A stretch of 64,000 nt of DNA. Source: Escherichia coli. Lineage in GTDB: Bacteria > Pseudomonadota > Gammaproteobacteria > Enterobacterales > Enterobacteriaceae. The stretch is from NCBI RefSeq assembly GCF_003334315.1, contig NZ_QOWR01000003.1; one strand, 5' to 3'. Made by a program: the position numbers and the translations under genes. Positions 14,679 through 15,952 of this stretch are shown here, one piece after another. The notes beneath the pieces are model-generated. The model ran no database searches. It saw only the letters and a list, made by a program, of their open reading frames with translations, and was not told the DNA's origin. Within the stretch, counting starts at the first letter, position 1. Each line of letters starts with the position of its first letter.

Positions 14679-15020
14679 TTACGCGACCTTTTTTGTACGC
14701 TCTTCACGGCGTGCTAAATATTCAGCCACTGTTTCAATCCGTCCCAATTCTTCCTGGGTACGCATGTTGTTTTCAACTTCCCAAAGATCAACTGCCGCCT
14801 GGAGGTTTAGCCAAAAATCGACTGTGGTATCAAAAACTTTCGCCAGACGGAATGCCATCTCAGTGGTGAGTTTACGATTGTTATTGATCAGTGCACTGAC
14901 GCTATTACGATGAACATGCAGCAACTCTGCTAACTCATTGATTTTCAAATCGAGCGGTTCCAGATATTCATAGAGAAGAATATCTCCGGGTGTCGTCGGT
15001 TTTCTTGTTGCCTGTTTCAT
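14679..15020 (-). CDS. ybaQ: XRE-family helix-turn-helix protein
   Basis: ORF track 131 aa; start trimmed to MKQATRKP (113 aa). Confidence 0.8.
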   Translation of the reverse strand: MKQATRKPTTPGDILLYEYLEPLDLKINELAELLHVHRNSVSALINNNRKLTTEMAFRLAKVFDTTVDFWLNLQAAVDLWEVENNMRTQEELGRIETVAEYLARREERTKKVA

Positions 15021-15157
15021 AGTTTTTAACTGTTGCTTCCCTGTGAATAGCGATACAAGAACATACTGAATCATACAAACACATTAAACAAGTCCCCAAC
15101 TCCATTTGCGCCATCCCTCCCCGCGCGCTAGCATGAGATTTCACAAAGGGAGGTCGT

Positions 15158-15952
15158 ATGGATCTGTTGTACCGGGTAAAAACGCTTTGGGCCGCGCTGC
15201 GCGGTAATCATTACTCCTGGCCTGCCATCGATATCACCCTCCCCGGCAATCGCCATTTTCATCTGATTGGCAGCATTCATATGGGTAGCCACGATATGGC
15301 TCCCCTGCCCACCCGTTTGCTCAAAAAGCTCAAAAACGCCGATGCGCTGATCGTCGAGGCTGATGTTTCCACCAGCGATACGCCTTTTGCTAATTTGCCT
15401 GCCTGCGAGGCGCTGGAAGAGCGCATTAGCGAGGAGCAACTCCAAAACCTGCAGCACATTAGCCAGGAGATGGGCATTTCTCCCTCACTCTTTTCTACCC
15501 AACCGCTGTGGCAAATCGCGATGGTTCTTCAGGCGACGCAGGCACAAAAACTGGGGCTGCGGGCAGAATACGGTATCGATTACCAGCTATTGCAGGCGGC
15601 GAAGCAACAACATAAACCCGTGATTGAACTGGAAGGGGCTGAAAACCAGATTGCCATGTTGCTCCAGCTCCCTGACAAAGGACTGGCGCTGCTGGACGAT
15701 ACGCTGACCCACTGGCATACCAACGCACGGTTGCTGCAACAAATGATGAGCTGGTGGCTGAATGCACCGCCGCAAAATAATGATATAACGCTGCCCAATA
15801 CGTTCAGTCAGTCGCTGTACGATGTGCTGATGCATCAGCGAAATCTCGCCTGGCGGGATAAATTACGCGCCATGCCGCCGGGGCGATATGTGGTCGCGGT
15901 CGGTGCACTACACCTGTATGGAGAAGGGAATTTGCCGCAAATGTTGCGCTAA
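15158..15952 (+). CDS. ybaP: TraB/GumN-family protein
   Basis: 264 aa; family call from memory of this locus. Confidence 0.8.
   Translation: MDLLYRVKTLWAALRGNHYSWPAIDITLPGNRHFHLIGSIHMGSHDMAPLPTRLLKKLKNADALIVEADVSTSDTPFANLPACEALEERISEEQLQNLQHISQEMGISPSLFSTQPLWQIAMVLQATQAQKLGLRAEYGIDYQLLQAAKQQHKPVIELEGAENQIAMLLQLPDKGLALLDDTLTHWHTNARLLQQMMSWWLNAPPQNNDITLPNTFSQSLYDVLMHQRNLAWRDKLRAMPPGRYVVAVGALHLYGEGNLPQMLR

What the first reader, a model, noticed from the sequence alone, without database searches (positions are those of the whole stretch)
14679..15952. Divergent pair of uncharacterised genes: XRE-type HTH protein and TraB/GumN-family protein
ybaQ encodes a small HigA-like HTH protein with no partner toxin gene in view, and ybaP a TraB/GumN-family protein. 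The pairing resembles regulator-plus-effector modules, but both genes are conserved core genes of unknown function.
Basis: inference. Interest (0 to 1): 0.25.

Follow-up and report, generated by a model that had tools for sequence, protein, structure and literature searches.

The report
Orphan HigA antitoxin beside ybaP
The two genes are real but are neighbours by accident: ybaQ is the leftover antitoxin of a mobile toxin-antitoxin cassette that landed next to the old housekeeping-type gene ybaP and then lost its toxin, an explanation already published.

Summary
Observation confirmed. The window is E. coli chromosome: ybaQ (14679-15020, minus; 113 aa) and ybaP (15158-15952, plus; 264 aa) are divergent, 137 bp apart.

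YbaQ is a HigA-family antitoxin. YbaP is a TraB/PrgY/GumN protein. No toxin gene lies in the 64 kb window.

The regulator-plus-effector reading is not supported:
- In 80 Enterobacteriaceae species, copA-ybaP-ybaK-ushA synteny is conserved. ybaQ sits beside ybaP only in Escherichia.
- ybaP has its own promoter, conserved in all 80 loci.
- The closest YbaQ relatives lie at unrelated sites or on phage-plasmids, always behind a HigB toxin gene or its wreck.

Among 5,426 complete E. coli genomes:
- 1,266 carry the toxin gene higB-1 between ybaQ and ybaP.
- About 3,560 carry the orphan form seen here.
- About 600 lack ybaQ.

Toxin-bearing cassettes share an operator palindrome. The window keeps only a degenerate copy with all four half-sites broken.

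Rousset et al. already showed that ybaQ is essential only in higB-1 strains. The structure (2EBY), DNA binding and ClpXP degradation are also published. Verdict: an orphan antitoxin, already known, low interest. Why it is retained, and what YbaP does, remain open.

The parts
14679..15020 (-). ybaQ: orphan HigA-family antitoxin and XRE-type HTH DNA-binding protein, 113 aa. Its C-terminus is used in published work as a ClpXP degradation tag.
   Evidence: ORF. TIGR02607 at 105 bits against a cut-off of 47.7. HTH_3. PDB 2EBY, 112/113 identical. 99% identical in DNA to the ybaQ of toxin-bearing E. coli. ClpXP tag and substrate (PMC2907309, PMC8652233).
15027..15095 (-). Segment specific to the orphan allele, upstream of ybaQ. 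It replaces 402 bp of the toxin-bearing allele: the higB-higA spacer, the 303-bp higB-1 gene and its 70-bp promoter.
   Evidence: Pairwise alignment of the window against L002: homology at 14680-15026 (99%) and 15096-15200 (98%) only. The segment differs at only 1-4 of 69 positions among four orphan-allele lineages.
15063..15096 (-). Degenerate remnant of the higBA operator-promoter: GGGAC-TTGT-TTAA-T-GTGT-TTGT-ATGAT-TCAGTAT, against the family consensus TGCAC-TTGC-GCAC-A-GTGC-N4-GTGCA-CTAYAAT. All four half-sites are broken. Possible -35 TTGTTT and -10 CAGTAT.
   Evidence: In-register alignment with six toxin-bearing cassettes. The ungapped profile score is reached by 26 of 5000 shuffles, at the expected position next to the shared flank. 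No operator match with up to 3 mismatches and no inverted repeat in the spacer.
15106..15134 (+). ybaP's own sigma-70-type promoter: -35 TTGCGC (15106-15111), 17-nt spacer, -10 TAGCAT (15129-15134), 23 nt before the ATG. It predates the ybaQ insertion.
   Evidence: TAGCAT, within CGCGCTAGCATG in nearly all printed loci, is present in 80 of 80 Enterobacteriaceae ybaP loci. A TTGnnn hexamer lies 17 nt upstream in 76 of 80. The segment is identical in the orphan, toxin-bearing and ybaQ-less E. coli alleles. The promoter function itself is inferred from sequence.
15158..15952 (+). ybaP: TraB/PrgY/GumN-family protein, a vertically inherited Enterobacteriaceae gene. Putative metal-dependent hydrolase of the Tiki/TraB/ChaN/EreA-like superfamily.
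14474..14653 (.). REP/BIME repeats between copA and ybaQ. They are not part of the cassette, and their copy number varies between alleles.
   Evidence: Rfam naRNA4 RF02564 at 86.5 bits at 14576-14653. Absent in L002 and L016, one copy in L014, three in the window and L015.

Best explanation
ybaQ is the surviving antitoxin half of a mobile type II higB-higA toxin-antitoxin cassette. The cassette inserted into the short copA-ybaP spacer in an Escherichia ancestor. In this lineage the toxin gene higB-1 has been lost. ybaQ now sits behind a mutated remnant of the old higB promoter whose HigA operator half-sites are all destroyed. ybaP is an unrelated, vertically inherited gene with its own older promoter, so the divergent arrangement reflects only where the cassette landed.

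Mechanism where the cassette is complete (inferred from the family, plus literature): HigB-1 is a RelE-fold, HigB/GraT-like toxin, whose family members are ribosome-dependent mRNA nucleases. YbaQ binds and neutralises it, and represses the operon at a palindromic operator that overlaps the -35 and -10 elements. ClpXP degrades YbaQ, so continued synthesis is needed.

In the window's orphan state, YbaQ is most likely a low-level, ClpXP-labile DNA-binding protein. It can probably still recognise HigB-1-type toxins and operators, since it differs from the toxin-linked protein by one residue. It no longer has a cognate operator or toxin next to it.

YbaP most likely acts as a cytoplasmic metal-dependent hydrolase of the Tiki/TraB type on an unknown substrate, independently of YbaQ.
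For: Shown here:
- Family and structure of YbaQ.
- higB-1 (PF05015 at 9e-32; closest solved relative GraT, 6F8S_B, at 3e-14) lies directly upstream of a 99%-identical ybaQ in 1,266 of 5,426 E. coli genomes.
- Orphan and toxin alleles share ybaQ and the ybaP promoter but differ in the segment between them.
- The orphan upstream region aligns in register with the conserved operator-promoter of six cassettes, with every half-site mutated.
- ybaQ is beside ybaP only in Escherichia. 80 of 80 loci keep the ybaP -10 hexamer, and copA-ybaP-ybaK-ushA order holds wherever the flanks are held.
- YbaQ relatives of 75-84% identity sit at other chromosomal sites or on phage-plasmids, behind HigB genes.
- The toxin has decayed independently, with the antitoxin intact, in C. 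freundii and in one E. albertii genome.
- One ybaQ-less E. coli allele (L003) is a clean deletion of the orphan form, which gives an order of loss: toxin first, antitoxin second.

From papers:
- ybaQ knock-down is lethal only in strains with intact higB-1, and it de-represses higB-1 (10.1101/2020.05.25.114553).
- YbaQ binds DNA in vivo, with a palindromic motif (PMC6237786).
- YbaQ is a ClpXP substrate.
- S. Typhimurium carries an unrelated horizontally acquired gene, scwA, at the same copA-ybaP junction (PMC7933661).
Against: - The orphan allele is not a simple recent deletion of the B2-type allele. The 69-bp upstream segment is only about 55-60% like the higB-1 promoter, while the flanks are 98-99% identical. 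The ancestral state and the number of loss events are therefore inferred, not shown.
- The orphan allele is old: it is shared with divergent Escherichia lineages at dS of about 0.18. It is under purifying selection (dN/dS 0.08), and its upstream segment is conserved. This argues that ybaQ does something today, which 'leftover' does not explain.
- YbaQ's regulon data (the supplement of PMC6237786) could not be read, so an effect on ybaP is not excluded experimentally.
- YbaP's activity is inferred only from fold and motifs.
Confidence: 0.85

Rival explanations
1. Regulator-plus-effector module: YbaQ is the dedicated transcriptional regulator of the divergently transcribed ybaP.
For: Divergent arrangement with a 137-bp shared spacer. 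YbaQ is a genuine DNA-binding protein (PMC6237786). In the toxin-bearing allele the operator ends about 12 bp from ybaP's -35 element, so cross-talk there is conceivable.
Against: Only 3 of 80 species loci have both genes, all in Escherichia. About 600 E. coli genomes keep ybaP without ybaQ. The ybaP promoter is conserved with or without ybaQ. The window's spacer has no operator and no inverted repeat. Relatives pair with HigB and never with TraB.
Confidence: 0.04
2. Anti-addiction or immunity role: the orphan YbaQ is kept because it neutralises HigB-1-type toxins, and represses the operators, of incoming mobile higBA cassettes such as those on phage-plasmids. This would let the host lose or exclude such elements without being killed.
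For: Orphan ybaQ is under purifying selection (dN/dS 0.08 between two orphan lineages). 92 plasmids, mostly about 75-95 kb and from E. coli or Salmonella, carry a toxin at least 80% identical to HigB-1. The one examined is a phage-plasmid (baseplate and tape-measure genes) with a 77%-identical HigA and the same operator. The orphan protein differs by one residue from the toxin-linked one.
Against: No experiment addresses it. Cross-neutralisation at 77-80% identity is not guaranteed. ybaQ has been lost in about 11% of E. coli genomes and is frameshifted in L015.
Confidence: 0.2
3. Domesticated transcription factor: after toxin loss, YbaQ was recruited to regulate other chromosomal genes, and the remodelled, conserved upstream segment is its new promoter.
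For: ChIP-exo peaks and a palindromic motif in K-12, which has the orphan allele (PMC6237786). The 69-bp upstream segment differs at only 1-4 positions across lineages whose synonymous divergence is up to 0.18. Rousset et al. suggest other functions.
Against: The target list could not be read here. Most peaks of these minor factors were intragenic, and no phenotype is reported in the text held. No operator-like site with up to 3 mismatches exists in the 64-kb window.
Confidence: 0.3
4. Neutral remnant: the orphan ybaQ has no present function and is simply decaying slowly.
For: Lost in about 600 genomes by at least two different events. Frameshifted in Escherichia sp. E1V33, L015. The operator is destroyed.
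Against: dN/dS of 0.08 between the window and L016, as low as for ybaP. The gene is intact in about 3,560 toxin-less genomes, and its promoter segment is conserved.
Confidence: 0.15

Closest known systems
higB-1/ybaQ toxin-antitoxin locus of E. coli phylogroups B2 and F (Rousset et al., bioRxiv 10.1101/2020.05.25.114553)
   Same: The same gene at the same chromosomal site. The YbaQ protein differs by one residue (T109 here, A109 there). The flanks, ybaQ and the ybaP promoter, are 98-99% identical.
   Different: The window lacks the 303-bp toxin gene, the higB-higA spacer and an intact operator. A 69-bp segment replaces 402 bp.
GraTA of Pseudomonas putida (PDB 6F8S, 6F8H) and the HigBA systems of P. 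aeruginosa (6JPI, 7CSV) and Proteus vulgaris Rts1 (4MCX)
   Same: Toxin-first gene order. The toxin is HigB/RelE-fold: HigB-1 matches GraT at 3e-14. The antitoxin is a HigA-type XRE HTH: YbaQ matches GraA at 3e-10 and P. aeruginosa HigA at about 3e-11.
   Different: These are distant in sequence. They are complete two-gene systems, whereas the window holds only the antitoxin.
Orphan or 'anti-addiction' chromosomal antitoxins (a concept recalled from the literature on chromosomal ccd homologues; not tested here)
   Same: An antitoxin gene is kept on the chromosome without its toxin, while related complete cassettes circulate on plasmids.
   Different: No protection experiment exists for YbaQ. 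This is a resemblance only.
TraB/PrgY/GumN family and the Tiki / ChaN / EreA-like superfamily (for YbaP)
   Different: No signal peptide or membrane anchor is evident. There is no link to conjugation, pheromone or gum genes. The substrate and activity are unknown.

Membership tests
HigA antitoxin (type II HigBA toxin-antitoxin) | Sequence match to the curated HigA equivalog model above its cut-off | tested here: met
   TIGR02607 at 105.3 bits against a cut-off of 47.7
HigA antitoxin (type II HigBA toxin-antitoxin) | XRE/Cro-type helix-turn-helix DNA-binding domain | tested here: met
   PF01381 HTH_3 at 1.6e-10. Solved structure 2EBY, and HigA/GraA/VapI relatives in the PDB.
HigA antitoxin (type II HigBA toxin-antitoxin) | Cognate HigB toxin gene immediately upstream in the same operon | tested here: not met
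   Not met in this window: there is no HigB-like ORF in the spacer or anywhere in the 64 kb. It is met for the 99%-identical gene in 1,266 of 5,426 E. coli genomes and for relatives in Kosakonia, E. albertii and phage-plasmids. The gene is therefore an orphan member.
HigA antitoxin (type II HigBA toxin-antitoxin) | Palindromic operator overlapping the operon promoter (autoregulation) | tested here: not met
   TGCAC-N4-GCAC-A-GTGC-N4-GTGCA is present in six toxin-bearing or recently decayed cassettes. The window has only a degenerate copy with all half-sites broken.
HigA antitoxin (type II HigBA toxin-antitoxin) | Neutralises the toxin, so the gene is essential only when the toxin is present | not testable with these tools
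   Reported by Rousset et al.: essential in 5 of 18 strains, those with intact higB-1, and knock-down de-represses higB-1.
TraB/PrgY/GumN (PF01963), Tiki-type hydrolase superfamily | Full-length match to the family profile | tested here: met
   PF01963 at 1.1e-43, residues 30-264 against model positions 9-255 of 263
TraB/PrgY/GumN (PF01963), Tiki-type hydrolase superfamily | Fold shared with solved superfamily members | tested here: met
TraB/PrgY/GumN (PF01963), Tiki-type hydrolase superfamily | Paired GxxH motifs plus an acidic residue proposed to bind metal (motif definition recalled from the Tiki/TraB literature) | tested here: met
   G38-S-I-H41, E67 (VEAD) and G249-A-L-H252 are invariant in 13 orthologues of 66-82% identity. 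That set has low power because the sequences are close.
TraB/PrgY/GumN (PF01963), Tiki-type hydrolase superfamily | Hydrolase (protease or esterase) activity | not testable with these tools
   No biochemical data were found. Only screen hits: a blue-light-sensitive deletion (PMC10782963) and one mecillinam-selected Q94P mutant in Klebsiella (PMC12959161).
Divergent regulator-effector gene pair | The two genes co-occur as neighbours across genomes | tested here: not met
   3 of 80 species-representative ybaP loci have ybaQ, all in Escherichia. None of the YbaQ relatives examined has a TraB neighbour.
Divergent regulator-effector gene pair | A regulator binding site in the shared spacer controls the effector's promoter | tested here: not met
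   No operator or inverted repeat in 15021-15157. The ybaP promoter is conserved independently of ybaQ. Binding itself was not tested experimentally.

The most novel reading that the evidence does not exclude
The orphan YbaQ is not a fossil. It is maintained by selection as a chromosomal immunity or 'anti-addiction' factor. Its promoter has escaped autorepression through loss of all four operator half-sites. This would keep a standing pool of antitoxin able to neutralise HigB-1-type toxins, and to silence the conserved operator, of incoming phage-plasmid or chromosomal higBA cassettes.
Probability: 0.15. Interest if true: 0.45.

Novelty: already known. Interest (0 to 1): 0.15.

Why it matters
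This result mainly cleans up an annotation question. The apparent 'HTH regulator plus TraB effector' pair is a coincidence of insertion site, and the missing toxin is known.

It is a tidy natural example of how toxin-antitoxin cassettes decay. All four stages are visible at one locus within one species:
- complete cassette;
- toxin lost;
- operator degraded;
- antitoxin lost.

The same order, toxin first, recurs independently in C. freundii and E. albertii.

Two modest open questions remain:
- Why is the orphan antitoxin kept under purifying selection in about two thirds of E. coli?
- What does the Enterobacteriaceae-wide TraB/GumN protein YbaP hydrolyse?

Tried and rejected
- A four-way MAFFT alignment of the alleles scattered the short homologous pieces and was misleading. 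It was replaced by pairwise alignments with long-gap scoring and by direct reading.
- I tested whether the orphan-specific segment derives from the ancestral copA-ybaP spacer of 'empty' sites (E. albertii, E. coli C1). Only the 14 bp next to ybaP (AACAAGTCCCCAAC) match. The remaining 56 bp do not: z = 0.9, with 200 of 1000 shuffles reaching the score.
- Gapped similarity of that segment to the higB-1 promoter was only marginal (z = 2.2). The ungapped in-register test against six operators was clearer: 26 of 5000 shuffles.
- Inverted-repeat and operator searches in the spacer and in the whole window found nothing. The consensus promoter scan did not flag either promoter.
- The supplement of Gao et al., which holds the YbaQ binding sites, motif and RNA-seq, is not held. 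YbaQ's targets, and any effect on ybaP, could not be read.
- NCBIfam gave only sub-threshold RelE/YoeB hits for HigB-1. Pfam PF05015 was decisive.
- The longer 131-aa ybaQ ORF, starting at the ATG at 15074, was rejected. That ATG lies inside the inferred promoter remnant, the extension does not exist in the toxin-bearing allele, and RefSeq and PDB both use 113 aa.

Full report
**What is there**

The window is E. coli chromosome. Between copA (11960-14464, plus) and ybaK (16156-16635, plus) lie two genes:
- ybaQ at 14679-15020, minus strand, 113 aa.
- ybaP at 15158-15952, plus strand, 264 aa.

They are divergent, with a 137-bp spacer. DNA 100% identical to 14400-16200 occurs in several complete genomes, where RefSeq annotates the same four genes.

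**What the proteins are**

YbaQ:
- It scores 105 bits against the NCBIfam HigA equivalog TIGR02607 (cut-off 47.7) and has a Pfam HTH_3 domain.
- It is 112/113 identical to the crystal structure 2EBY. Its next solved relatives are HigA/GraA/VapI antitoxins.

YbaP:
- It is a full-length PF01963 TraB/PrgY/GumN protein, at 1e-43.
- No NCBIfam model and no sequence relative in the PDB exist for it.
- The paired GxxH motifs (GSIH41, GALH252) and E67 are invariant among the orthologues.

**The missing toxin**

No HigB-like ORF exists in the spacer or anywhere in the 64 kb. A search of 5,426 complete E. coli genomes shows three forms of this interval:

| Form | Content | Genomes |
|---|---|---|
| a | The orphan form seen here | 4,829 with ybaQ minus 1,266 with the toxin, about 3,560 |
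| b | ybaQ preceded by a 303-bp gene annotated as a RelE/ParE-family toxin | 1,266 |
| c | ybaP without ybaQ | about 600 |

The toxin of form (b) matches PF05015 HigB-like_toxin at 9e-32. Its closest solved relative is GraT of P. putida, at 3e-14.

This is the locus described by Rousset et al. (bioRxiv 10.1101/2020.05.25.114553):
- Its knock-down de-represses higB-1.
- higB-1 is absent from most phylogroups, including K-12.
- Both genes are absent from phylogroup D.

So the 'HigA without a toxin' already has a published explanation.

**Is the ybaQ-ybaP pairing meaningful?**

I fetched 80 species-representative ybaP loci across Enterobacteriaceae and searched each for CopA, YbaQ, HigB-1, YbaK and UshA.
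- The copA-ybaP-ybaK-ushA order is kept wherever the flanking DNA is held. A few loci have extra DNA, or no copA, within 3.5 kb upstream of ybaP.
- ybaQ is present in only three loci, all Escherichia (L014, L015, L016).
- It is absent in E. albertii, E. whittamii, Citrobacter, Salmonella, Klebsiella, Enterobacter, Kluyvera and the rest. There copA and ybaP are typically 50-150 bp apart.
- All 80 loci carry TAGCAT 22-25 nt before the ybaP start, within CGCGCTAGCATG in nearly all printed loci. A TTGnnn hexamer lies 17 nt upstream in 76 of 80.
- In the window, the -35 element is 15106-15111 and the -10 element is 15129-15134. This segment is identical in all three E. coli forms. ybaP therefore has its own promoter, older than the ybaQ insertion.

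Conversely, the closest YbaQ relatives (75-84% identity) sit elsewhere:
- between rlmC-like and artJ-like genes in Kosakonia;
- near yjdP in C. freundii;
- between the gor and slp regions in E. albertii;
- on E. coli and Salmonella plasmids of about 75-95 kb. The one examined, 87.6 kb, is a phage-plasmid.

Each is preceded by a HigB gene or its wreck, and none is next to a TraB gene. An independent paper notes that S. Typhimurium carries a different horizontally acquired gene, scwA, at the same copA-ybaP junction (PMC7933661).

**Anatomy of the orphan allele**

Compared with a toxin-bearing genome (L002), homology runs over two stretches:
- 14680-15026, which is ybaQ plus 6 nt, at 99%;
- 15096-15200, which is the ybaP promoter and start, at 98%.

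Between them, 69 bp of the window (15027-15095) stand in for 402 bp of L002: the spacer, higB-1 and its promoter.

Six cassettes share a clear operator-promoter, TGCAC-TTGC-GCAC-A-GTGC-N4-GTGCA-CTAYAAT. They are E. coli B2, Kosakonia, C. freundii, two E. albertii genomes and a phage-plasmid. The motif is a double palindrome overlapping a -35 TTGCGC and a -10 element.

The window's upstream sequence aligns with this motif in register, directly after the shared flank: GGGAC-TTGT-TTAA-T-GTGT-TTGT-ATGAT-TCAGTAT (15063-15096, minus strand).
- It matches 20 of 34 positions against the B2 and Kosakonia sequences.
- The profile score is reached by 26 of 5000 shuffles.
- All four GCAC/GTGC half-sites are broken.
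- No operator with up to 3 mismatches and no inverted repeat exists in the spacer or in the window.

My reading is an inference: the higB ORF was deleted, the old promoter was kept, and the operator was lost.

The event is not recent. The segment is far more diverged from the B2 promoter than the flanks are, and the orphan form is shared with divergent Escherichia lineages.

**A decay series**
- L003 (strain VCSW7) lacks ybaQ through a clean deletion of 14700-15071 from an orphan-type allele. It retains the last 20 nt of ybaQ and the orphan-type upstream sequence.
- E. whittamii (L013) lacks both genes but keeps a piece of the intact-type operator next to ybaP.
- C. freundii has a higB truncated after residue 84, with higA intact.
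- One E. albertii genome (L010) has a frameshifted higB, about eleven tandem GGTGCAGT copies inside the operator and an IS element upstream, again with higA intact.

In this family the toxin is lost first.

**Is the orphan still doing something?**
- Between two orphan lineages (window and L016), ybaQ has dS 0.18 and dN 0.015, a ratio of 0.08. That is as constrained as ybaP, at 0.03-0.08.
- The 69-bp upstream segment differs at only 1-4 positions among four orphan lineages.
- Against that, ybaQ is frameshifted in L015 and absent in about 11% of E. coli genomes.
- Published work shows in-vivo DNA binding with a palindromic motif in K-12 (PMC6237786) and ClpXP-dependent turnover.
- The binding-site list is in a supplement that is not held, so I cannot say whether ybaP is among the targets.

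Two non-exclusive functional readings remain:
- YbaQ may be a domesticated minor transcription factor.
- YbaQ may be an anti-addiction factor against related mobile cassettes. The second is plausible because 92 plasmids carry a toxin at least 80% identical to HigB-1. The one examined also carries a 77%-identical HigA and the same operator.

**Verdict**

The module interpretation is not supported. The thing is an orphan HigA antitoxin next to an unrelated TraB/GumN gene, and the core of this explanation is already in the literature.

What this analysis adds:
- allele frequencies;
- the operator consensus and its degeneration in the orphan allele;
- the deletion series;
- the Enterobacteriaceae-wide synteny test;
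- the independent ybaP promoter.

Interest is low. The remaining open points are why the orphan is retained and what YbaP does.

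Noticed in passing
window 15951-16034 (-): The sRNA sroB/ChiX (Rfam RF00368, 82 bits against a gathering score of 44) lies in the ybaP-ybaK spacer. 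Its 3' end overlaps the ybaP stop codon. The palindrome at 15959-15978, followed by a T-run on the minus strand, is its terminator. It is a known sRNA and not part of the finding.
   Followed up: partly
window 14474-14653: REP/BIME repeats (Rfam naRNA4 RF02564, 86.5 bits) lie between copA and ybaQ. Copy number differs between alleles: none in the B2 allele L002 and in L016, one in L014, three in the window and L015.
   Followed up: partly
window 15123-15135; L012-L091 upstream of ybaP: The hexamer TAGCAT is present 22-25 nt upstream of the ybaP start in all 80 Enterobacteriaceae loci, within CGCGCTAGCATG in nearly all loci printed, while the sequence around it varies. That is more conservation than a -10 hexamer alone would need, so it may also be a regulator site or discriminator.
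   Followed up: partly
L010 2325-3000 (E. albertii CP099877.1): The higBA operator carries about eleven tandem copies of GGTGCAGT, an expansion of one half-site. higB is frameshifted, an IS-type transposase lies just upstream, and higA is intact.
   Followed up: partly
L007/L008 2688-2939 (C. freundii): higB is truncated after residue 84 by a small internal deletion, while the operator and higA are intact. This is an independent case of toxin decay with the antitoxin retained.
   Followed up: partly
L013 about 3410-3440 (E. whittamii): There is no higB and no ybaQ, but a fragment of the intact-type operator (GCACTATGCACAAGTGCAACAATCAAC) remains directly next to the ybaP promoter. The whole cassette was therefore deleted from a toxin-type allele.
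   Followed up: no
copA-ybaP junction in L038, L061, L063, L067, L068, L084: Several genera have 1 kb or more of extra DNA, or no copA, within 3.5 kb upstream of ybaP. S. Typhimurium has scwA there (PMC7933661). The junction looks like a recurrent insertion site.
   Followed up: no
window 14679-15020 against L002 1500-1841: ybaQ differs at 0.9% of positions between the orphan and B2 alleles. The flanking copA, ybaP and ybaK differ at 2.1-3.7% (Fisher p = 0.018 against copA plus ybaP). ybaQ may have moved between lineages by recombination more recently than its neighbours.
   Followed up: partly
L015 about 3085-3363 (Escherichia sp. E1V33): ybaQ has a frameshift after about residue 93 that replaces the C-terminal tail, which is the part used as a ClpXP tag. 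It is either a pseudogene or a variant with altered stability.
   Followed up: no
L004 2133-2500 (E. coli C1): The second ybaQ-less allele has about 370 bp of GC-rich sequence between copA and ybaP that is unrelated to any other allele. It ends in a spacer very like the E. albertii empty site. Its origin was not examined.
   Followed up: no
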